From: an uncultured bacterium | GTDB lineage: Bacteria; Omnitrophota; Omnitrophia; Omnitrophales; Abzuiibacteriaceae | NCBI GenBank assembly: GCA_964387845.1 | Contig: CAYLXA010000006.1 | Location: 1 to 64,000 of the forward strand | Length of the DNA: 64,000 nt | Direction: 5' to 3' | Part shown: piece after piece, positions 8,805 to 18,219 of the stretch | Numbering within the stretch: the stretch's first letter is position 1 | Layout of the letters: every line of letters starts with the position of its first letter | Translations under genes and position numbers: made by a program | Notes under the pieces: model-generated | Seen by the model: only the letters and a program-made list of their open reading frames with translations | Databases searched by the model: none | What the model was told of the DNA's origin: nothing

Positions 8805-9898
8805 TGTCTCAGCTGGCCGAAACTTCTGTCCATCATGAAATTTTGCAGAAAGCTGTCGACGGAAAAAGAATCAGCGTCGAAGAAGGCATCAAACTTTTCT
8901 CCTGCGATTTGCTCTCGCTCGGCGCTGCAGCCACGAAAGTCAGAAACCGGCTGCATCCCGAACCGGTCGTTACATTTGTGATCGACCGGAACGTCAGTTA
9001 CACGAATATTTGCATCGTCGACTGCGATTTCTGCGCATTTTACCGCCGCCCGGACCACAAAGAAGGCTACACGCTCACGAATGACCAGATTTTCGAAAAG
9101 ATCCAGGAGCTCGTTGATATGGGCGGCACGCAAGTCCTGATTCAGGGCGGCGTCAATCCCAATTTGCCGCTCGATTATTACATCAATTTGATCCGTTCAG
9201 TCCGGGAGAGATTTCCGCAGGTTCACATTCATTCGTTTTCGGTTGTGGAGCTCGATTTTATCGCGAAAAAATCAAAACTTCCGATCAAAGAAGTGCTGCT
9301 CAAGTTTAAAGAAGCCGGCCTCAACTCACTTCCGGGCGCCGGATCCGAGATGTTAGTGGAGCGTGTGCGCGATATCATCAGCCCCAAGAAAAATTCAACC
9401 GAGCGCTGGATTGAAGTCATGCGGACGGCGCACGAAGTCGGTTTGCGTTCGACGGCCACGATGGTGATCGGCCACATCGAAACATTCGCCGAAAGAATCG
9501 AACATCTGGAAGTTTTGCGCAAGCTTCAGGATGAAACGCACGGTTTCCGCGCGTTTATTTCGTGGACCTTATCACCCAAGGGAACACCGCGCATGAGCCA
9601 TCTGGAGCAGGCAAGCGGCGCTGATTTCCTCAAAACCGTCGCGATTTCACGGCTCTTTCTGGATAATTTTGAAAATATTCAAAGCGGTTGGCTCACCGAA
9701 GGCTTGAAGCTTGGGCAAACCGCGCTTTCCTTCGGCGCCAACGATATGGGCGGCACGCTTTTGGAAGACAAGGTGCTGGAGCCGACGGGCGTTCAGGTCA
9801 ATACGCGCCGCGATGATTTGGTGACGCTCATCAAAAAAGCCGGCTACATTCCCGCGCAGCGCAATACAAACTACGAAATTCTGCGCGTTTTCAAATAA
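8801..9898 (+). CDS. radical SAM menaquinone-biosynthesis enzyme, MqnC/MqnE family (dehypoxanthine futalosine cyclase or aminofutalosine synthase)
   Basis: 'NICIVDCDFCAFY' CxxxCxxC cluster motif and ~365 aa; adjacent to the MqnA-like gene. Confidence 0.7.
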   Translation: MMSQLAETSVHHEILQKAVDGKRISVEEGIKLFSCDLLSLGAAATKVRNRLHPEPVVTFVIDRNVSYTNICIVDCDFCAFYRRPDHKEGYTLTNDQIFEKIQELVDMGGTQVLIQGGVNPNLPLDYYINLIRSVRERFPQVHIHSFSVVELDFIAKKSKLPIKEVLLKFKEAGLNSLPGAGSEMLVERVRDIISPKKNSTERWIEVMRTAHEVGLRSTATMVIGHIETFAERIEHLEVLRKLQDETHGFRAFISWTLSPKGTPRMSHLEQASGADFLKTVAISRLFLDNFENIQSGWLTEGLKLGQTALSFGANDMGGTLLEDKVLEPTGVQVNTRRDDLVTLIKKAGYIPAQRNTNYEILRVFK

Positions 9899-9905
9899 TT
9901 CCTTT

Positions 9906-10601
9906 ATGGTTTATACGCAGCCTGACTCCAAATCCATTCAATCCATTTTTGATTCGATTCCAAAGCGCTATGATCTTCTGAATACAGTTTTCAGTTTATC
10001 GTTAGACCGCAATTGGCGCAAAAAAGCCGCGAAATCGGTTATCGAAGGAAACGAAAAATCGGTTTTGGATATCGGTGTCGGAACAGGGAAGTCCATTAGC
10101 GCATTTTTAAAAACGAAACATTTCGATCTGTCCGTCGGATGCGATTTTTCAAAAGGGATGCTCGAAGTCGCCAAAGGCAATGTGAACGGAACGAAGCTCG
10201 CATGTGCGGATATGCATGCGCTGCCGTTTTCGGATGAATCATTCGACATTATCACCTCGAGTTTTGTGCTCCGCAGCGTCCAAAATATGGTGCTTTTTCT
10301 TTCCGAAGTCCGGCGGGCGCTCACCAAAAACGGAAAAATTGCATTTTTGGATTTAACGCGTCCCACAAATCCCTGGGTTTGGAATTTGATGTACAAACCT
10401 TACCTTAAATTTTACATTCCGCTGATCGGAAAAACGGTTTCTCGTCACGACAGGGCGTATCAGTTCTTGTCGCAATCCATCCAGCATTTTATCGATCCTC
10501 ATATTTTAAAGAGCCAGCTTGAGCAAGCCGGATTCAAAGACGTTTCCTTTAAGCCGCTCACGTTTGGAATCGCGACACTGTTTATGGGTAGAAAAGCATG
10601 A
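9906..10601 (+). CDS. menG: demethylmenaquinone/ubiquinone C-methyltransferase (UbiE/MenG family)
   Basis: 'YDLLNTVFSLSLDRNWRK' (the UbiE YDxMN...HRxWR motif) and SAM motif I 'VLDIGVGTGK'. Confidence 0.75.
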   Translation: MVYTQPDSKSIQSIFDSIPKRYDLLNTVFSLSLDRNWRKKAAKSVIEGNEKSVLDIGVGTGKSISAFLKTKHFDLSVGCDFSKGMLEVAKGNVNGTKLACADMHALPFSDESFDIITSSFVLRSVQNMVLFLSEVRRALTKNGKIAFLDLTRPTNPWVWNLMYKPYLKFYIPLIGKTVSRHDRAYQFLSQSIQHFIDPHILKSQLEQAGFKDVSFKPLTFGIATLFMGRKA

Positions 10602-11440
10602 AAAAGGCAGCCCGGATTTTGCTGTCGCTTTTGGCCGGCGTTTTGATTTCGGCTTTTTTAGCGCCTATTCTGCATCAATTTCTGCCATTTAAATTCGAGA
10701 AAATCTTAAACCGGCTGCTCATTATCTCAATTGTTATCGTCTGCTTTGTTTTTGTCCGGTTCGACAAAAATTTCTTCCGTGAAATCGGTTTTCAAAAGGG
10801 GTATTTCAATTTCCGAAATTGGCTTTCCGGATTTGTGCTGAGCTGCGCGGTTTTGTTCGCGCTGGTTTTCCTGGAACTAAACCTCGGCGCTATGGGCTGG
10901 TCCGAAAACTTTTCACTGACGGTGTCGCTTATTTTCTCATCATTATTGACCGCGGTTGTGGTCGGTATCACGGAAGAATTTTTCTTCCGCGGCTATCTTT
11001 ACTTGAAGTTCAAAAAAATACTAAGCGTTACGCAGTCTTTATTGTGGACGAATGTCATTTATTCCGCCGTTCATTTTATGAAGAGCGGACGGCCTTTGAT
11101 CGAAGGCGATCCGACGATGTGGGACAGTTTGCGGGTGATCGGCGCGAGTTTCCGTGGATTCATCCAATTCGGAAATTTCTGGGCGGCATTTGTAGGTCTT
11201 TTTATCTTCGGTTTAGTTCTCAGTTTTGCGTTTTCGCGGACCAAGTCGCTTTATCTTTCCATCGGAATTCATTCCGGCGCGGTTTTCTTCATCAAGCTGA
11301 CGAGTAAATGGTTTGAGTATGACTCCTCATTTTCGTCGCTGATTTACGGCGGGAAGGGCTTTTATTCGGGCTTTTTGGGCTGGCTTTTTATCGGCCTCAT
11401 TGGCTTCGGTGTTTTCTTGTTTACTAAAAAGCATCACTAA
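10598..11440 (+). CDS. CPBP-family intramembrane metalloprotease (CAAX protease/bacteriocin-processing family)
   Basis: 'ITEEFFFRGYL' (EExxxR) and 'SAVHF' (FxxxH) motifs in a multi-TM protein. Confidence 0.65.
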   Translation: MKKAARILLSLLAGVLISAFLAPILHQFLPFKFEKILNRLLIISIVIVCFVFVRFDKNFFREIGFQKGYFNFRNWLSGFVLSCAVLFALVFLELNLGAMGWSENFSLTVSLIFSSLLTAVVVGITEEFFFRGYLYLKFKKILSVTQSLLWTNVIYSAVHFMKSGRPLIEGDPTMWDSLRVIGASFRGFIQFGNFWAAFVGLFIFGLVLSFAFSRTKSLYLSIGIHSGAVFFIKLTSKWFEYDSSFSSLIYGGKGFYSGFLGWLFIGLIGFGVFLFTKKHH

Positions 11441-11462
11441 TTTCCCGCCTCAACCCTCATAT

Positions 11463-11769
11463 TATCCATTTTTAACTACGCTCAGGCCCTCGGCTCAGCC
11501 GACGTTCGGATTTCCCAGCGAGAAATCCTCTCTCGACTTCCGGCTGCCCTCGGCAAGAATGGTTTGCCCAAAAGGCAGCTCACGGAACCGCGAGGAGCTT
11601 GGTCCTGCCTGATATTCGTTGGCAGGTCCGAGCGGTGAGTGGGCAGGCGGCTTGACGCCGCAGGAGCGTCAAGACCGCCGGTGCCTGACGGGCAAACCAT
11701 TCTTGCCACCATGCTCGGGCAGCCTCCCAGACGCGTCTTCGCCGAGGCCTTCGCAGTTAAAAATGGATA
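11463..11769. repeat. GC-rich ~307-bp imperfect palindrome with nested hairpins; candidate structured ncRNA or MITE-like element
   Basis: Terminal arms TATCCATTTTTAA...TTAAAAATGGATA. Perfect 18-bp internal inverted repeat GGCAAGAATGGTTTGCCC (11552–11569) / GGGCAAACCATTCTTGCC (11690–11707). 8-bp GGCTGCCC/GGGCAGCC pairing. Local hairpins CTTGACGC-N7-GCGTCAAG (11651–11673) and a central GGTCCTGCC...GGCAGGTCC hairpin. GC is clearly higher than the flanks; the ORFs called inside look spurious. Confidence 0.4.
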
Positions 11770-11878
11770 CAGACCTGCTTCAATCCAATGAGTTTGACTT
11801 TCTCCTTAATCTGCAGTATCCTAAGACTCTTTTTTACCAATTGCGAAAGACATAAATATAGTAACATCAATCACTTAC

Positions 11879-13051
11879 ATGAATTCAAAACGCCAAATCT
11901 ATTATTTCGACTATAACGCGACAACACCGATGGCGGAAGAAGTGTTGGCCGAAATGATGCCGTTTTTTGGCCCCGCCTACGGAAATCCGTCCAGCACTTA
12001 CCGGTTGGGAAGCGAATCGTTGCGCGCCCTGACTCAAGCGAGGCGCCAAGTTGCTAAGCTGATCGGTGCGGATGAGCGTGAAATTATTTTCACGGGCGGC
12101 GGAACGGAAAGCAACAACATGGCGATCTGGAGCGCGCTCCAAGCCGATCCTTTCAAAAGAAAAATCGTGACCAGCGCGGTCGAACATTCTTCGGTCCGAA
12201 ACGTCCTTTCCGATTTGGAAAAAAGCGGTGTTGAGGTTGTTAAAATCCCGGTTTCGCCGGCGGGTGAATTGGATTTAGACAGACTGGAAAAAGAGCTGAC
12301 CGAAAATGTTGCGGTTGTTTCGATTATGTGGGCCAACAATGAAACAGGTGTTGTATTTCCGGTCGATAAAATCACCCAGATTGTGAAATCAAAGAATATT
12401 TTGCTCCACGTGGACGCGGTGCAGGCGATCGGGAAAATTAAAATCGATTTATCGAAAACCGCCGTTGATTATTTGTCGCTCGCAGCACACAAATTTTACG
12501 GGCCGAAAGGCATCGGCGCGCTTTTTGTCCGGAAAAATGCCCCGGTTCATCCTTTGATTTTGGGCGGCCATCAGGAGCGCGGCCTGCGCGGCGGAACGGA
12601 GAATGTGCCGGGTATCGTTGGTATGGGAAAAGCCGCAGAGCTTCTTTTGAAAACCAGCGAAGATTCAATCATTCAAATGGGAAGATGGCGCGAACAGCTG
12701 GAGAAAGCCCTGATTCGCGATATTCCGGAAATTATTGTGAACGGAAAGTTATCGGCGCGGGCTTGCAATACGCTAAACGTTACGATTCCGGGCGTTTTAT
12801 CCGAAGTTTTGATCCCAAAGCTGGATGAGGCCGGTATTTGTGTCTCAAGCGGTTCGGCGTGCCTGACGGGCGCTCAAGAACCTTCGGTGGTTTTGCAGGC
12901 GATGGGTGTTTCGAAAGAAGACGCGATGTGTTCCGTTCGTATCAGCTTGGGATCCAAAACAACGCAGGAAGAAGTGGATTATTTAATTCAGATGATGCCG
13001 AAAGCGGTCCGGGAAATTCGGCAAACCAAAATTGGAGCGAAAAAGCAATGA
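11879..13051 (+). CDS. cysteine desulfurase (NifS/IscS family, PLP-dependent)
   Basis: 'FTGGGTESNN', 'SLAAHKFYGPKGIGALFVR' (PLP Lys) and the catalytic 'SSGSACLTG' loop. Confidence 0.85.
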   Translation: MNSKRQIYYFDYNATTPMAEEVLAEMMPFFGPAYGNPSSTYRLGSESLRALTQARRQVAKLIGADEREIIFTGGGTESNNMAIWSALQADPFKRKIVTSAVEHSSVRNVLSDLEKSGVEVVKIPVSPAGELDLDRLEKELTENVAVVSIMWANNETGVVFPVDKITQIVKSKNILLHVDAVQAIGKIKIDLSKTAVDYLSLAAHKFYGPKGIGALFVRKNAPVHPLILGGHQERGLRGGTENVPGIVGMGKAAELLLKTSEDSIIQMGRWREQLEKALIRDIPEIIVNGKLSARACNTLNVTIPGVLSEVLIPKLDEAGICVSSGSACLTGAQEPSVVLQAMGVSKEDAMCSVRISLGSKTTQEEVDYLIQMMPKAVREIRQTKIGAKKQ

Positions 13052-14151
13052 TTCAGGAATCGGATGTTTTGAGCGCGCTGAAGCAGGTGCAAGATCCCGA
13101 CCTTAAGATTGATATCGTGACGCTCAAGTTCGTGAAGAACGTCACAATCAAAGGTGGCGATGTGAGTTTCGATATCGAGCTGACGACTCCGGCGTGCCCC
13201 GTGAAAGACCAATTAAAAGAAGAGGCAGGCCGGGTTGTCCGGAAAATCCAGGGCGTGGTGAATGTGAATGTGAATATGACTTCTAACGTAAAAGCGCGGG
13301 CGAGCGCGGGAAGCGCTGTGCTGCCGAAAGTAAAAAATGTGATTGCCGTTGCGAGCGGCAAGGGAGGTGTCGGAAAATCAACCGTGGCGGCTAATTTGGC
13401 GCTTGCACTTGCGAAAACCGGTGCAAAAACGGGTTTGCTGGATGCCGATGTGTACGGCCCGAGCATTCCGGTGATGTTTGGCGTAAACGATCAGCCGGAA
13501 GTGACCGGTGATCAGAAAATTATTCCGATTGAAAGTCAGGGCTTGAAACTCATGTCGATGGGTTTTATCTCGAATGATGATTCGCCCGTGATTTGGCGGG
13601 GCCCGATGGTGCACGGTATTTTGCAGCAATTCCTGACGCGCGTTGAATGGGGCGCTCTCGATTATTTGGTGATGGATTTGCCGCCCGGCACAGGCGATGC
13701 GCAGCTGACACTCACGCAATCGGCGCCGATTTCGGGCGCTGTGATTGTCACGACGCCGCAAGAAGTGAGTCTTGTGGATGCGCGCAAAGGCCTCAAAATG
13801 TTTCAGAAAGTGAATGTGCCGGTCCTTGGTATTGTCGAAAACATGAGTTATTTTGTCTGCCCCGATTGCAACAAACGTCACAACATTTTCCGCTCGGGCG
13901 GCGGCCGTAAAACTGCCGATGAATTGGGCGTTTTGCTCTTGGGTGAAGTGCCGATTGATCCGGAAGTTTCGGAATCGGGTGACGCCGGCGTGCCGATTGT
14001 GGCGCGTAACGAAAAATCACCGGCCGCGAAGGCGTATCAAAATATTGCCGGAGCCGTTGCCGCGCAGCTCAGCATCGTCAATATGAAAAACGCTAATGTC
14101 CAATCTGATTTTAAAATGACCTGGAAAACGGTGCCGCAAAACCCGTCATGA
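13048..14151 (+). CDS. Fe-S cluster carrier ATPase Mrp/ApbC/NBP35 family with an N-terminal DUF59 (MIP18-like) domain
   Basis: ATG at 13048 overlaps the NifS stop (ATGA). Deviant Walker A 'ASGKGGVGKST' and a CPDC (CxxC) motif. The upstream ORF extension to 12838 lies inside nifS and is rejected. Confidence 0.85.
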   Translation: MIQESDVLSALKQVQDPDLKIDIVTLKFVKNVTIKGGDVSFDIELTTPACPVKDQLKEEAGRVVRKIQGVVNVNVNMTSNVKARASAGSAVLPKVKNVIAVASGKGGVGKSTVAANLALALAKTGAKTGLLDADVYGPSIPVMFGVNDQPEVTGDQKIIPIESQGLKLMSMGFISNDDSPVIWRGPMVHGILQQFLTRVEWGALDYLVMDLPPGTGDAQLTLTQSAPISGAVIVTTPQEVSLVDARKGLKMFQKVNVPVLGIVENMSYFVCPDCNKRHNIFRSGGGRKTADELGVLLLGEVPIDPEVSESGDAGVPIVARNEKSPAAKAYQNIAGAVAAQLSIVNMKNANVQSDFKMTWKTVPQNPS

Positions 14152-14477
14152 GCGAAATCGCGATTCCGACCGAAATCAAGCAAGCTGGCCCGCAGGAACT
14201 TGGGATCAAGTGGTCAGATGGGCACGACAGTGTTTATGGCTGTTATAATCTTCGGCTCCACTGCCGCTGTGCCAATTGTGTGGATGAATGGAACGGAGCA
14301 GCGAGATTAAATCGCGAGATGGTGCCGACGGATGTTCATCCGCTCACGATTGAAAGTGTCGGGCGTTACGGGCTTAAAATCAATTGGAGCGACGGGCACA
14401 GCACGGGCATTTATGCGTATCAGTCGTTGAGAGATTATTGTGAATGCAGTTTATGCGTGAAAGCGGGGAAGTCATGA
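14148..14477 (+). CDS. DUF971 (gamma-butyrobetaine hydroxylase N-terminal-like) domain protein, Fe-S assembly associated
   Basis: Duplicated 'W-DGH' halves ('IKWSDGHDS...', '[10 protein letters not shown]') with CxxC pairs; start overlaps the Mrp stop. Confidence 0.55.
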
Positions 14478-15070
14478 GAAAAGAAAAAAACGGATTGGGC
14501 ATTGCTGATGATCCAAAAATCGAATCACTCATCAAGGATTTAATCGAAAAGCTCGGCGAGGATCCGTCGCGCGAAGGTTTGCTCGAAACCCCAAAGCGCG
14601 TCGAAGCGTCGCTTCGTTATTTAACGAGAGGCTACAAGCAGGATATCGAAAAAGTCCTCAACAACGCGATTTTTGAAGAAAATTACGACGAGATGGTCGT
14701 GTTAAAAGACATCGACCTTTTTAGTCTGTGCGAACATCATTTGCTTCCGTTTTACGGAAAAGCACATGTTGCGTATCTGCCCAACAAAAAAATCATCGGC
14801 CTATCCAAAATTCCGCGTGTGGTGGACGTATTTGCGCGCCGTTTACAGGTTCAGGAGCGCCTCACGGGACAAATCGCTGACTGTCTCATGCAATATTTGA
14901 AGCCGAAAGGTGTTGCGGTCGTGATTGAAGCGTTTCACTTGTGTATGGCGATGCGCGGTGTCGAAAAGAAAGATTCTTACTGCGTGACGAGCTCCATGCT
15001 CGGCGGATTCAGGTCCGATGAAAGGTCGCGTGCGGAATTCCTGAGTTTGATCGGAAAGCGGAACGGCTAG
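14474..15070 (+). CDS. folE: GTP cyclohydrolase I (FolE)
   Basis: '[20 protein letters not shown]' active-site motif. ATG at 14474 (ATGA overlap with the upstream stop) preferred over the in-frame ATG at 14444. Confidence 0.8.
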
Positions 15071-16125
15071 TTTTTCGTTCCGGAACGGAGCGATTCGATT
15101 TCGGCTTCGAGATTGGCAATTCTTTTCTTCAGGTCGCTGACATCCCCAAAACTTTCGGCAGCGCGAAGCTGTGCGGCGATTTGCCTGCGCATTTCCTGAT
15201 AAGGCCGCGCCGGCTGGCCAAACCAAATTTGCTTAGCCGGAATTTTTTTGCCGGAAGGAACGCCGGAATTTCCGCCGAGCATCGTACCGTCGCCGATTTC
15301 CACGTGATCCGCGAGCCCTGCGCCGCCGCCCATAGTTACAAAATTCCCGATTTTGCAGCTTCCGGAAATTCCGCATTTTGCTGAAATTGCGCAATGCTCG
15401 CCGATTTCCACATTGTGCGCGATTTGGACCTGATTATCGATTTTGGTTCCTTTGCCGATGACGGTTTCGCCGACCGTGGCGCGGTCTATCGTGGTTCCGG
15501 CGCCGATTTCGACATCGTCATGCACGACAACGATACCGACTTGCGGCACTTTTTGCTGCTGCTTGCCGTCAAATACAAACCCGAATCCATCTGCACCCAA
15601 AACGGCACCGGCATGAATCGTGACGCGGTTTCCAATTTTGGTTTGATCGTAAATTGTCACATTCGGGTGAATAACGGAATTTTCGCCGATCACGGCTGAC
15701 TCACCGATGTGAACATTGGCCCGGATGACCGAATTTTTTCCGATCTGTACTTTCTCGCCGATCACGGCGAATGCCTCTACTGTCACATTGTCTCCGATTT
15801 TGGCCGTCGGCGCGATGAAAGCTTGTTTTGAAATTTGTCCGTCGAATTTTTTTGGCGGATGAAACAGGGAAAGCAGCATGGCGAACGCGAGTTTGGGATT
15901 ATCGGTTTGAATCAGCGGCTTGGATGATTTCGTGATGTTTTTGGGGACGATGATGCAGGCGATTTCGCTTTTCTCAAGCGCCGGCAAGTCTTTCGGGTTC
16001 AGTAAAAACGTAATACCACCCCGAATCGGCTTTTCGAATCCGGAAACATCGCCGATTTCGATTTTGGAATCACCGATAACCGTTCCGTGAATGATTTCTG
16101 ATAACTTTTGAATCGTGTAAGGCAT
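15067..16125 (-). CDS. lpxD: UDP-3-O-(3-hydroxyacyl)glucosamine N-acyltransferase (LpxD) with a ~35-aa C-terminal coiled-coil-like extension
   Basis: Long left-handed beta-helix hexapeptide repeats and an LpxD-type N-terminus '[14 protein letters not shown]'. ATG at 16125 chosen by homology to canonical LpxD starts; a TTG at 16173 is also in frame. Confidence 0.8.
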
Positions 16126-16185
16126 GGCGAGCATTTTAACTGGTAGGAGTCGAAAGTCAAGAAGGTCTGCCAAAGCTAAACAACT

Positions 16186-16214
16186 CTTGTTTTCCTAACT
16201 TCTGATGGTATAAT
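16186..16214 (+). promoter_or_regulatory. candidate promoter with extended -10 (TGgTATAAT) and weak -35 (CTTGTT, 17-nt spacer)
   Basis: Hexamers read directly. An AAGGAG RBS at 16228–16233 precedes the ATG at 16241. Lies in the divergent region between lpxD and the lipoprotein gene. Confidence 0.35.
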
Positions 16215-16240
16215 GCGTTATCAAACCAAGGAGTTTTCTA

Positions 16241-17215
16241 ATGAAAAAGTTTTTTATCTTAATTCCATTGCTCCTGCTTTTGACCGGCTGCTTTGACGCT
16301 ACTTTTAATTTTAAAACAAATGTTGCTTCCGATGGTTCGATTACCCGCGAAACTAAGATAGAAGGCCGGGGCGCCGACCGCTTTTTACCGCCCGCCGGCA
16401 AGGGCTGGGAAGTCAAAACCTACCAAACTCGCGGCGGCCAGTCGGTTTTAGATGATAAATATCACCATATTTATGCGATCGGCCGTTTTAAAAATTCTTC
16501 TCAGATGGGCAGCGATTATCAATACGATTCCGAAAGCGCTTTTACCGAAGTCAGCGATGAAGAACGGCAGAATTTTATCCAGCTCGGAGTTGTAGAGCCT
16601 TTCAACGAAACCATTTATTCCAAAAATAATGTTCAGGTCGTTAAGAAGAGCGGTCTTTTCAAATCGCAATTTGAATATGCAGAGACTTTTAAAAATCAGC
16701 ACATCATCGAATTGCTTTTGAATGATTTGAAAAAGGAAGTTGTGCGCCAGCAGGAAGTCGCGGTTGAAGAAGCCGGCGCAGCTTCCGCTCCGGCCGCTCA
16801 AAACGCACAACCGGGAGAAGGCGCTGAAAAAGCCGGGGCAATCGATCCCGAAGTGCTGCCGGTTACCATTGAAGGGCAGCTTTTATCAGCTCAGAAAGTT
16901 GAGACCATTGCGCGTGAGCGATTGGACAGAGAAATCCTTTCACAATTTAAATTTCATTCCGAAGTGACTTTGCCCGGAAAGATCATTTCATCGAATGCCG
17001 ACCGCGTGCTTGGCAATACCGCAATCTGGGACTTTACCGCGAAAGATTTTAAGGGAGGCATTGCCCAGAAGACACTTTCCATTCAATCGGAAATGATCGA
17101 ATGGAAAACCATCGTTTTGCTTTCTGTTTTGGCGCTTGTGATCATTTTTGGAATCGGGTCAGCACTTACCAAGAAACCAAAAACCGGCCGTTCACGTTCA
17201 AGTAAACGGCATTGA
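16241..17215 (+). CDS. lipoprotein (lipobox LLLTGC) with a C-terminal TM helix and basic tail; hypothetical
   Basis: 'LLLLTGCFD' lipobox. C-terminal '[16 protein letters not shown]' TM plus a [14 protein letters not shown] tail. Confidence 0.5.
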
Positions 17216-17217
17216 TT

Positions 17218-18219
17218 ATGAAAAAAGCGCTGATCACAGGAATTACGGGGCAGGATGGCTCCTACCTAGCCGAATTTTTGCTGAAAAAAGGCTATCAGGT
17301 TCATGGCATCATCCGCCGGACGAGCACCTTCAATAGCCGCTCGCGCCTGGAGCCCATTTATCAGGATCCGCAAATCAAACATGCGTCACTCATTTTGCAT
17401 TACGGTGATTTGAATGACGCAAGTTCGCTAAACAAATTGCTTCGCACGATCCGCCCGAATGAAATTTATAATTTAGGCGCGCAATCGCACGTTAAAACCA
17501 GCTTTGATATTCCGGAATATACTTCAGAAGTTACCGCGATCGGCGCGCTCCGGCTTCTGGAGGCAATCCGCGAGTCCGGCCTTCATCCCAAATACTATCA
17601 AGCTTCTTCCAGCGAAATGTTCGGCCGCGCACTGAAAGGGAAGAAGCAGAATGAAAAAACCGTGTTCAATCCCGTAAGCCCTTACGCGGCTGCGAAGGAA
17701 TTTGCGAACCGCATCACAACCATTTACCGGGAAAGTTACGGCATGTTTGCCTGCAACGGTATTTTGTTCAATCACGAATCGCCGCGGCGCGGTGAAACAT
17801 TCGTCACGCGTAAGATCACGATTGCGGTCGCGCGTATCAAGCATGGCCTTCAGGACAAACTTTATCTCGGAAATTTGAATGCCAAACGCGACTGGGGTTT
17901 TGCGGGCGACTATGTGGAAGCAATGTGGCTCATGCTCCAGCACAAAAAACCGGATGATTACGTGATCGCAACCGGCGAAACGCACACCGTGCGCGAATTT
18001 TTAGAAGAAGCGTTTGATTATGCAGGCCTCAATTGGAAAAAACATGTTCGCATTGATCCGCGCTATTTTCGTCCGTTAGAAGTTGAGTACTTGCAGGGTG
18101 ACGCGTCCAAAGCGCGCAGGGTTTTGGGATGGAAGCCGCGCGTTTCCTTCAAACAATTGGTGCAGATGATGGTTGACGCGGATATAGCCGCTTTTCATTC
18201 TGAAAGAGTTAGAGTTTAA
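17218..18219 (+). CDS. gmd: GDP-mannose 4,6-dehydratase (Gmd)
   Basis: '[19 protein letters not shown]' Rossmann motif, 'YAAAK' catalytic Y-x3-K, and a typical Gmd '[12 protein letters not shown]' segment. Confidence 0.9.

What the first reader, a model, noticed from the sequence alone, without database searches (positions are those of the whole stretch)
11463..11769. GC-rich 307-bp imperfect palindrome between the CAAX protease gene and nifS: candidate structured ncRNA or MITE
- **Structure.** The terminal arms are exact reverse complements (TATCCATTTTTAA / TTAAAAATGGATA). Inside sit a perfect 18-bp inverted repeat (11552–11569 vs 11690–11707), an 8-bp GGCTGCCC/GGGCAGCC pair, a local 8-bp hairpin (11651–11673) and a central hairpin at about 11601–11629. 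Together these could fold into a long multi-branched rod.
- **Composition.** GC content is visibly higher than the surrounding DNA.
- **Coding potential.** The three ORFs predicted inside (11400–11612+, 11482–11712−, 11619–11855+) overlap each other and look like palindrome artefacts.
- **What it is not.** It does not match RNase P, tmRNA, SRP RNA or 6S RNA by eye.
- **What it could be.** A novel structured RNA (it lies immediately 5' of the nifS Fe-S operon, so possibly a cis-regulatory leader), or a palindromic mobile element.
Basis: seen in the sequence. Interest (0 to 1): 0.65.

Follow-up and report, generated by a model that had tools for sequence, protein, structure and literature searches.

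The report
Maintained 307-bp palindromic insertion, not a nifS leader
A GC-rich 307-bp DNA segment that folds into a long branched hairpin sits between two genes of an Omnitrophota-like bacterium; it has taken the place of two genes that relatives carry there, has one diverged relative elsewhere that keeps the same fold, and looks most like a small low-copy mobile palindromic element rather than a regulator of the neighbouring Fe-S gene.

Summary
The palindrome is real. Both strands fold far better than shuffles (z -9.4 and -8.5), and GC is 0.60-0.63 against 0.445 for the window. Rfam has no match.

It is not a conserved nifS leader. Five relatives carry a GGDEF gene and a TPR gene after the CAAX protease gene and have no such element. 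In the window, about 350-380 bp containing the palindrome replaces those 2.4 kb. A promoter-like site conserved with a relative lies downstream of the element.

A six-frame protein search found one second copy, read as a spurious N-terminal extension of an unrelated ceramidase-like protein (P0078, DNA not retrievable). Genetic-code constraints from that protein show:
- 88 of 93 predicted pairs can still pair (61-71 in slid controls).
- 11 pairs are changed on both sides yet stay complementary (1-3 in controls).
- Unpaired positions are more conserved than paired ones (p = 0.007).

Pairing is almost purely Watson-Crick, and neither strand is preferred. No other copy was found anywhere searched.

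Best reading (0.5): a low-copy MITE/REPIN-like mobile palindrome. Main rival (0.3): a new structured RNA.

The parts
11463..11769 (.). Whole palindromic element (307 bp). It is a rod of about 110 base pairs with one side hairpin on the left arm and a three-way junction at the apex.
   Evidence: The unit shared with the second copy (P0078) runs from about 11465 to about 11768, so it is delimited by the base of the hairpin.
11463..11480 (.). Left terminal arm. It pairs with 11752-11769.
   Evidence: I2: 18 nt, 94% complementary. In the second copy 4 of the outer 5 pairs are changed on both sides and still pair.
11752..11769 (.). Right terminal arm. It pairs with 11463-11480.
11484..11509 (.). 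Left half of the interrupted second-tier stem. It pairs with 11727-11750.
   Evidence: helices. Compensated pairs inferred in the second copy: 11486-11748, 11493-11742, 11498-11737.
11727..11750 (.). Right half of the interrupted second-tier stem.
11507..11541 (.). Left-arm side branch with no counterpart on the right arm. It forms either hairpin GGATTTC..GAAATCC (11507-11527) or hairpin 11517-11538. It lies in the block that is nearly invariant between the two copies.
   Evidence: The 11517-11538 version loses pair 11523-11531 in the second copy. By my reading of the sequence, the 11507-11527 version falls in identical residues and pairs better on the minus strand (U.G in place of C.A).
11542..11549 (.). 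8-bp stem GGCTGCCC. It pairs with 11717-11724 and is part of the conserved core.
   Evidence: I10. No forced change in the second copy.
11552..11577 (.). Left arm of the main 26-nt stem, which contains the perfect 18-mer. It pairs with 11682-11707.
   Evidence: I1. Compensated pairs 11568-11691 (CG>TA) and 11574-11685 (GC>AT).
11597..11633 (.). Apical hairpin A. The second copy is 2 codons shorter here and has a different sequence.
   Evidence: That the second copy also forms a hairpin here is my inference only.
11646..11679 (.). Apical hairpin B, which includes the 8-bp CTTGACGC / GCGTCAAG stem.
   Evidence: (I11). Compensated pairs 11649-11676 and 11650-11675.
11682..11707 (.). Right arm of the main 26-nt stem.
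11708..11716 (.). 9-nt bulge ACCATGCTC on the right arm, unchanged in the second copy. Part of the conserved core.
11717..11724 (.). 8-bp stem GGGCAGCC. It pairs with 11542-11549.
11441..11462 (.). Left flank between the CAAX stop codon and the palindrome. It is not homologous to the relatives.
11770..11792 (.). Right flank. It is not reliably homologous to the relatives; homology to L003 resumes at 11793.
11794..11822 (+). Context, not part of the element: promoter-like site TTGACT-17-TATCCT in front of nifS, conserved with L003.

Best explanation
The element is a discrete, non-coding, low-copy palindromic insertion of the MITE/REPIN kind: a small non-autonomous or formerly mobile DNA.

It arrived in this lineage between the CAAX-protease gene and the nifS promoter. 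Its arrival was accompanied or followed by loss of the ancestral GGDEF and TPR genes. Whether that happened by adjacent deletion or by recombination is inferred, not shown.

The whole length folds into a branched hairpin. The fold is kept across diverged copies, either by selection on the element or by templated correction within the palindrome. A roughly 90-nt asymmetric core stays nearly constant in sequence and is the likely site recognised by a protein (inferred).

At its present position it lies in the 3' untranslated part of the mqn-ubiE-CAAX transcription unit, upstream of the nifS promoter. Its most likely effect on the host is a large 3' hairpin that blocks read-through or exonucleases. 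That effect is inferred and untested.
For: 1. Lineage-specific presence.
- Five relatives (CAAX protein 78-53% identical) all have CAAX -> GGDEF(-) -> TPR(+).
- nhmmer finds no trace of the element in them.
- Window 9497-11415 and 11793-18185 are collinear with L003 2-1918 and 4299-10704. So 11416-11792 replaces 2.4 kb.

2. A second copy sits in a different context. P0078 residues 13-99 equal the frame-0 translation of 11471-11737 (E 8e-17). This stretch precedes a signal-peptide-like segment and ceramidase and AAT domains that start at residue 137.

3. Similarity between the two copies starts and stops at the base of the hairpin; the flanks differ. The shared unit is therefore the palindrome itself.

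4. Terminal inverted repeats of 18 nt, bordered by TA on both sides.

5. Pairing is almost purely Watson-Crick.
- 3 G.U among 110 pairs on the + strand, and 0 G.T among the 28 complementary fully determined pairs of the second copy.
- The two strands fold equally well.
- This fits a DNA-level palindrome.

6. GC is 0.62 against 0.445, which suggests foreign origin.

7. No promoter-like or terminator-like site frames the element as a gene of its own. The two promoter-like sites near it lie outside, and no Rfam family matches.

8. Published work reports that MITEs reach about 400 bp and fold into long stem-loops. It also reports compensatory changes in the mobile repeats REPIN and bcr1 (PMC3184786, PMC3116915).
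Against: - Copy number looks very low. There is no second copy in the 64-kb window and none in about 100 kb of relatives.
- There is only one hit in the six-frame protein search, and none for the 76-aa ORF or the left-half translation.
- Nothing was found in phages or plasmids or in viral contigs.
- Only chance hits came from the representative genomes with the 18-mer and from JGI metagenomes with the terminal-repeat pair.
- The outermost terminal pairs are the most diverged part between the two copies. This is the opposite of what transposase-bound ends of one family predict.
- Unpaired positions are more conserved than paired ones (4/72 against 37/201 forced changes, p = 0.007). That is the usual signature of a functional structured RNA.
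- A target-site duplication cannot be shown. The two TA dinucleotides are themselves part of the palindrome, and the non-homologous segment is about 22 nt wider than the palindrome on each side.
- No transposase gene lies within 10 kb.
Confidence: 0.5

Rival explanations
1. It is the gene for a previously undescribed structured RNA of about 300 nt, either stand-alone or processed from the 3' end of the CAAX operon transcript. Its conserved asymmetric core binds a protein or other ligand. The terminal and apical helices only need to pair.
For: - The fold is very stable.
- 11 inferred double compensatory changes and 88/93 pairs kept in the second copy, against 1-3 and 61-71 in slid controls.
- Loops, bulges and junctions are more conserved than stems (p = 0.007).
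- The terminal stem covaries rather than being conserved.
- It is a GC-rich island in an AT-richer genome.
- The side hairpin 11507-11527 pairs slightly better on the minus strand (my reading of the sequence).
Against: - Absent from the orthologous locus of five relatives.
- Almost no G.U pairs and no strand asymmetry.
- No promoter-like or terminator-like site of its own.
- Perfect helices of 15 and 18 bp would be RNase III substrates (general knowledge).
- No Rfam family even at E = 10.
- Compensation is also known in mobile palindromes.
Confidence: 0.3
2. It is a functionless quasi-palindrome: a by-product of the deletion that removed the GGDEF and TPR genes, or of local inverted duplication. 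Template-switch repair then made it more perfect.
For: - It sits exactly where 2.4 kb were lost.
- The pairing is Watson-Crick only, as templated copying would give.
- It is unique in the window.
Against: - A homologous copy exists at an unrelated locus.
- That copy has the same boundaries, the same branched architecture and a conserved core.
- A local accident would not recur elsewhere.
Confidence: 0.07
3. It is a cis-regulatory 5' leader of the nifS / Fe-S cluster operon.
For: It lies 110 nt upstream of nifS on the same strand.
Against: - Relative L003 has the same nifS-mrp-DUF971-folE operon and the same promoter-like site without the element.
- The promoter-like sites at 11794-11822 and 11833-11862 lie downstream of the element.
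- The second copy precedes a ceramidase-like gene, not an Fe-S gene.
Confidence: 0.03
4. It is a divergent housekeeping RNA that Rfam models miss: 6S or Ms1-like RNA, long SRP RNA, or RNase P RNA.
For: - The size and rod shape, with an apical three-way junction and a conserved internal asymmetric region, loosely recall 6S/Ms1 or the S domain of long SRP RNA (my own knowledge).
- Candidate phyla often escape Rfam models.
Against: - No hit to any of these families, even at E = 10 with permissive filters.
- No conserved SRP or RNase P sequence motifs are visible.
- Absent at the syntenic site of close relatives.
- Near-perfect Watson-Crick palindromy is unlike these RNAs.
Confidence: 0.05

Closest known systems
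Bacterial MITEs that fold along their whole length (Neisseria Correia/NEMIS elements, Bacillus cereus bcr1, enterobacterial ERIC/IRU, pneumococcal RUP)
   Same: - Small and non-coding, with terminal inverted repeats, lying between genes.
- Presence or absence differs between relatives.
- The whole length folds into a stem-loop.
- Compensatory changes are reported for bcr1 (PMC3184786).
- TA borders resemble the TA duplication of Correia and IS630-type elements (my own knowledge).
   Different: - Those families are 100-160 bp and occur in tens to hundreds of copies. This element is 307 bp and only two copies are known.
- The ends are not conserved between the two copies.
- No target duplication is demonstrable.
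- No partner insertion sequence is known.
REPINs (REP doublets forming hairpins, mobilised by RAYT transposases)
   Same: Two inverted conserved blocks (about 11542-11562 and 11697-11724) are separated by a spacer whose sequence varies while its hairpin is kept by compensatory changes. This matches the description of REPINs (PMC3116915). Pairing is at the DNA level.
   Different: - REPINs are about 70-110 bp, highly abundant, and linked to a RAYT gene.
- Here the spacer is about 134 nt with two sub-hairpins.
- There are additional covarying outer arms.
- Copy number is low, and no RAYT was seen in the window. Small ORFs were not exhaustively screened.
Integron attC sites
   Same: - Imperfect palindromes in which structure is conserved and sequence is not. 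They act as folded single strands and lie downstream of a gene.
- The arm ends TTTTAAC / GTTAAAA match the RYYYAAC / GTTRRRY boxes at 6 of 7 positions each (my reading of the sequence).
   Different: - attC sites are about 57-141 bp and occur in arrays with or near an integrase.
- This element is 307 bp and solitary.
- The upstream CAAX gene is syntenic core genome, not a cassette.
Rickettsia palindromic elements (RPEs)
   Same: A palindromic repeat that can be read through in frame as part of an annotated protein, as happens in P0078.
   Different: RPEs are inserted inside genuine coding regions and tolerated in the protein. In P0078 the element lies before a signal-peptide-like segment, so it is most likely an over-extended start-codon call.
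6S / Ms1-type rod-shaped regulatory RNAs
   Same: A long irregular rod with a conserved asymmetric internal region and covarying closing and apical helices. Ms1 is about 300 nt (my own knowledge).
   Different: - No Rfam hit.
- No large two-sided central bubble.
- Very few G.U pairs.
- Not conserved in position among relatives.

Membership tests
MITE | Small (below about 400 bp) and without coding capacity | tested here: met
   307 bp. The internal ORFs overlap one another, have no Pfam match, and the 76-aa ORF has no homologues. Frame 0 is interrupted by a stop codon.
MITE | Terminal inverted repeats | tested here: met
   18 nt at 94%, with the outer 15 nt perfect.
MITE | Flanking target-site duplication | tested here: inconclusive
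   TA lies at both ends (11463-64 and 11768-69), but these bases pair with each other as part of the palindrome. The flanks 11441-11462 and 11770-11792 are not homologous to relatives, so no empty site is available.
MITE | Multiple dispersed copies in a genome | tested here: inconclusive
   One copy in the 64-kb window. One further copy is known only through protein P0078, from an NCBI contig of unknown genome. The rest of the source genome could not be fetched.
MITE | Presence/absence polymorphism at orthologous sites | tested here: met
   Absent from L001, L003, L037, L038/L039 and L040/L041. The site also carries a 2.4-kb deletion, so this is not a clean filled-versus-empty comparison.
MITE | A parent insertion sequence with the same terminal repeats | tested here: not met
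   No other match to the terminal 15-mer with up to 2 mismatches in the window apart from one chance-level site. No transposase gene among the annotated neighbours. Only 64 kb could be examined.
REPIN | Two inverted conserved motifs with a hairpin-forming, compensating spacer | tested here: met
   Conserved blocks at 11503-11562 and 11697-11726. The spacer and outer arms are variable but stay paired.
REPIN | High abundance and an associated RAYT gene | tested here: not met
   No further copies in any search. No RAYT was noted in the window, though ORFs under 200 aa were not screened systematically.
Known structured RNA families (Rfam 15: 6S, Ms1, SRP, RNase P, tmRNA, ribozymes, riboswitches, OLE/GOLLD/HEARO/ROOL and others) | Match to the family covariance model | tested here: not met
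   No hit at gathering score in the whole window. In 11200-12000 at E <= 10, only mir-351 (E 1.9) and CRISPR-DR30 (E 4.5) appear, both far below their gathering scores.
Functional structured RNA (generic) | Covariation that supports the fold | tested here: met
   Indirect, from genetic-code constraints of P0078. 11 double changes keep pairing, against 1-3 in slid controls. 28 of 31 fully determined pairs are complementary, against 6-14 of 21-31. This rests on two sequences only and on inferred nucleotides.
Functional structured RNA (generic) | Strand-specific transcription with defined ends | not testable with these tools
   No expression data. The consensus scan finds no promoter-like or terminator-like site that frames the element.
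Cis-regulatory leader of nifS | Lies within the 5' UTR and is conserved with the regulated gene | tested here: not met
   The promoter-like site conserved with L003 lies downstream of the element. L003 has the operon without the element.
Integron attC | 57-141 bp, in cassette arrays or near an integron integrase | tested here: not met
   307 bp and solitary in 64 kb. The upstream gene is conserved core synteny.

The most novel reading that the evidence does not exclude
The element is the first seen member of an undescribed family of about 300-nt structured nucleic acids (RNA, or single-stranded DNA) in Omnitrophota-like bacteria. Its features would be:
- a conserved asymmetric core (about 11503-11562 together with 11697-11726);
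- covarying closing and apical helices;
- the ability to move between loci or genomes.

In other words, a functional structured RNA gene that behaves as a mobile unit, rather than a decaying MITE.
Probability: 0.3. Interest if true: 0.65.

Novelty: new member of a known kind. Interest (0 to 1): 0.45.

Why it matters
If it is a MITE/REPIN-like element, it is an ordinary kind of object, though it would be one of the few mobile palindromes characterised in the poorly studied, uncultivated Omnitrophota. It also marks a recent loss of a diguanylate-cyclase/TPR gene pair.

The unusual points are these:
- its very low copy number;
- a fold maintained through at least 11 compensated pairs;
- a core that is more conserved than the stems and the ends.

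If these reflect function, the element is a new structured RNA or DNA family absent from Rfam, and it could be tested directly with existing metagenomes and metatranscriptomes.

On method: translating a non-coding element in all six frames and searching protein databases recovered a copy hidden inside a mis-annotated protein. The genetic code then allowed a covariation test without the DNA.

Tried and rejected
1. Rfam at gathering score on the whole window, and at E <= 10 on 11200-12000. Nothing credible.

2. BLASTN and nhmmer of the element against the window and all 93 fetched loci. Only the self-match.

3. Scan of the representative genomes with the perfect 18-mer GGCAAGAATGGTTTGCCC. It gave 32 single chance hits in unrelated phyla. 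In hindsight the 18-mer carries a position (11568) that differs in the second copy, so that copy could not have matched.

4. JGI metagenome scan with the terminal-repeat pair TCCATTTTTAA N{266,296} TTAAAAATGGA. It gave 48 hits, nearly all AT-rich chance matches. L059 and L063 are far larger or perfect foldbacks unrelated to this element.

5. Viral contigs with three patterns: nothing relevant. Phage and plasmid blastn: nothing.

6. Protein searches with the 76-aa minus-strand ORF gave no hit. The left-half frame-0 translation against 1.84 billion representatives gave only three tandem-repeat junk proteins.

7. Fetching the DNA of the source contig and of the P0078 locus. These are not on record and no accession is available.

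8. Coding remnant of a ceramidase N-terminus: rejected. The matching stretch precedes a signal-peptide-like segment, and the window copy has an in-frame stop. Pairing compensation would also not be expected of coding sequence.

9. Assembly artefact: rejected. The palindrome is imperfect and branched, and part of it is present in an independent Logan assembly of the same strain.

10. Intrinsic terminator: no U-run follows the hairpin on either strand.

11. Literature searches for Omnitrophota together with MITE or noncoding RNA: no papers.

Full report
**1. The observation**

It consists of nested inverted repeats:
- terminal arms of 18 nt (94% complementary, outer 15 nt perfect);
- an interrupted stem 11484-11509 / 11727-11750;
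- an 8-bp stem 11542-11549 / 11717-11724;
- a 26-nt stem 11552-11577 / 11682-11707 that contains the perfect 18-mer;
- an apical three-way junction with hairpins 11597-11633 and 11646-11679;
- a side branch on the left arm (11507-11541) with no counterpart on the right arm.

Folded as RNA, the + strand gives -167.8 kcal/mol and the - strand -169.2. Shuffle means are -112.5 and -118.7, so z = -9.4 and -8.5, and no shuffle folds as well.

GC is 0.60-0.63 over the element, against 0.445 for the window.

The internal ORFs have no Pfam domain. The flanking genes are an Rce1-like CAAX protease (10598-11440) and a class-V aminotransferase, NifS/IscS-like (11879-13051). After these come Mrp/ApbC, a DUF971-type protein and GTP cyclohydrolase I.

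**2. What it is not**

Rfam 15 gives no hit at gathering score anywhere in the 64 kb. In 11200-12000 it gives nothing better than E = 1.9. This excludes recognisable 6S, SRP, RNase P, tmRNA, ribozymes, riboswitches and the large ornate RNAs.

**3. Genomic context and relatives**

The CAAX protein has homologues named by their sources as Candidatus Omnitrophota/Omnitrophica. I fetched loci for relatives at 78%, 71%, 58%, 54% and 53% protein identity (L001/L002, L003/L004, L037, L038/L039, L040/L041).
- Every contig that extends far enough beyond the CAAX gene carries a convergent GGDEF gene and then a TPR gene. In three of them one extra gene lies in between.
- In L003 the TPR gene is followed directly by the same nifS-mrp-DUF971-folE operon.
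- Whole-window BLAST shows window 9497-11415 = L003 2-1918 and window 11793-18185 = L003 4299-10704.
- So about 350-380 bp containing the palindrome stand in place of 2.4 kb.
- nhmmer finds no trace of the element in any relative.

The stretch conserved with L003 upstream of nifS begins with TTGACT-17-TATCCT (11794-11822). A second promoter-like site lies at 11833-11862. Both are downstream of the element.

The element is therefore lineage-specific. It sits behind the CAAX stop codon and in front of the nifS promoter. It is not a conserved nifS leader.

**4. Search for further copies**

The following searches found nothing:
- the window itself;
- the 76-aa ORF against 5.8 billion proteins;
- phages and plasmids;
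- viral contigs;
- the representative genomes with the exact 18-mer, which gave 32 chance hits;
- JGI metagenomes with the terminal-repeat pair, which gave 48 chance hits.

A pseudo-protein made of all open six-frame segments found one protein, P0078 (924 aa, NCBI only, on a 409,037-bp contig), at E = 3e-14. Residues 13-99 of P0078 match the frame-0 translation of 11471-11737 (58% identity, tblastn E = 8e-17).

This stretch precedes a signal-peptide-like segment (MSSLLKCPSVIYIFLLLVLLCLP...). The ceramidase and AAT domains begin only at residue 137. I read it as an over-extended start codon that runs through a second copy of the element in front of an unrelated gene.

The DNA of that locus could not be fetched. 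Both P0078 and the window's own CAAX protein P0001 are NCBI-only and absent from the contig index. This fits them coming from the same assembly but does not show it.

**5. Covariation without DNA**

The genetic code fixes many nucleotides of the second copy. I used three ungapped blocks:
- frame 0 from 11465, 48 codons;
- frame 0 from 11639, 30 codons;
- frame +1 from 11730, 13 codons. This block implies a 1-nt deletion at 11729 in the other copy.

I chose the registers by amino-acid similarity, not by pairing. I then asked of each base pair of the window's minimum-energy fold whether the second copy can still form it.

| Measure | Observed | Partner slid by 1-3 nt |
|---|---|---|
| Evaluable pairs that can still pair | 88 of 93 | 61-71 of 89-92 |
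| Pairs changed on both sides and still complementary | 11 | 1-3 |
| Fully determined pairs that are complementary | 28 of 31 | 6-14 of 21-31 |

The 11 compensated pairs are:

| Pair | Window | Second copy |
|---|---|---|
| 11465-11767 | TA | GC |
| 11466-11766 | CG | GC |
| 11468-11764 | AT | CG |
| 11469-11763 | TA | AT |
| 11486-11748 | GC | AT |
| 11493-11742 | GC | AT |
| 11498-11737 | GC | AT |
| 11568-11691 | CG | TA |
| 11574-11685 | GC | AT |
| 11649-11676 | GC | AT |
| 11650-11675 | GC | YG |

Forced changes are rarer at unpaired positions (4/72) than at paired positions (37/201); Fisher p = 0.007.

The blocks 11503-11562 and 11703-11722 are almost invariant. The outermost terminal pairs are the most changed. 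Similarity between the two copies begins and ends at the base of the hairpin, and the flanks are unrelated.

Caveat: this rests on two sequences and on inferred nucleotides. Seven of the 11 compensated pairs depend on the 13-codon frame-shifted block.

**6. DNA or RNA?**

The window copy has 3 G.U among 110 pairs on the + strand and 6 on the - strand. The mirror-image structures have nearly the same energy. None of the complementary fully determined pairs of the second copy is G.T.

So no strand is preferred, and pairing is essentially Watson-Crick. This is what a DNA-level palindrome or templated arm-to-arm copying would give. It is unusual for an RNA selected on one strand only.

No promoter-like or terminator-like site frames the element as a gene of its own. 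No U-run follows the hairpin on either strand.

**7. Interpretation**

Shown:
- a discrete 307-bp unit bounded by its own hairpin base;
- lineage-specific at this locus;
- a diverged homologue at an unrelated locus;
- the fold maintained;
- the core conserved.

Inferred: it is, or was, mobile, of the MITE/REPIN kind. The literature reports that MITEs reach about 400 bp and fold into long stem-loops, and that compensatory changes occur in bcr1 and in REPIN spacers (PMC3184786, PMC3116915). Covariation alone therefore does not separate a mobile palindrome from an RNA gene.

Against the MITE reading:
- very low apparent copy number;
- ends that are not conserved between the copies;
- no demonstrable target duplication;
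- no partner transposase.

These same points, together with loops being more conserved than stems, keep a new structured RNA alive as the main rival (0.3). The nifS-leader idea, a local deletion scar and a divergent housekeeping RNA are each unlikely, for the reasons given under the rival explanations.

At its present site the most plausible effect is a large 3' hairpin on the mqn-ubiE-CAAX transcript, upstream of an independent nifS promoter. This is untested.

**8. Independent assembly**

The same strain occurs in Logan run SRR15237813, where the NifS, UbiE and DUF971 proteins are identical.
- The right-hand contig starts at window 11736, inside the right arm.
- The left-hand contig ends at 10929.

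The part of the right arm that was assembled is identical, so the element is not an artefact of one assembler. The gap may reflect poor coverage of the hairpin or heterogeneity in the population. It is worth checking with the reads.

**9. Verdict**

The feature is real and its fold is evolutionarily maintained. Its class is undecided. Most likely it is a low-copy mobile palindromic element, new for this phylum but of a known kind. Interest is moderate: it would rise if genome-wide and transcript data show a single-copy, expressed RNA.

Noticed in passing
window 11416-11792 versus L003 1919-4298 (also L001, L037, L038, L040): This genome has lost the convergent HAMP-GGDEF (diguanylate cyclase) gene and the TPR gene. 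All five examined relatives carry them downstream of the CAAX protease gene.
   Followed up: partly
window 11794-11822 and 11833-11862: Two promoter-like sites lie upstream of nifS. The first (TTGACT-17-TATCCT) lies in a block nearly identical to relative L003, so it is probably the real nifS operon promoter.
   Followed up: partly
L091/L092 position 1 (= window 11736); L093 end (= window 10929): In the Logan assembly of SRR15237813 (same strain) the contig carrying nifS begins inside the right arm of the palindrome, and the upstream contig ends in the middle of the CAAX gene. About 800 bp, including most of the element, are not on either contig.
   Followed up: no
P0078 residues 1-105 (NCBI protein, 409,037-bp contig): The annotated N-terminus of this ceramidase/AAT-domain protein appears to be a translated copy of the palindromic element, ahead of a signal-peptide-like segment. 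The start codon is probably called too far upstream.
   Followed up: partly
window 11504-11539: A weak, non-significant resemblance to a CRISPR repeat model (CRISPR-DR30, 16 bits, E 4.5) falls on the most conserved part of the element. No repeat array or cas gene was seen nearby.
   Followed up: no
L059 about 1780-2290; L063 2368-2684: Two JGI metagenome contigs picked up by chance contain very long, nearly perfect foldback palindromes (fold energies -152 and -301 kcal/mol over about 300 nt). These are probably assembly foldbacks and are unrelated to this element.
   Followed up: partly
window 11396-11406 and 11782-11792: An 11-nt inverted repeat (CTCATTGGCTT / AATCCAATGAG, 91% complementary) brackets the whole replaced segment, from the 3' end of the CAAX gene to just before the nifS promoter. 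It may be chance, or it may be related to the rearrangement.
   Followed up: no
window 1-64000: No tRNA or any other Rfam family reaches its gathering score in the entire 64 kb.
   Followed up: no
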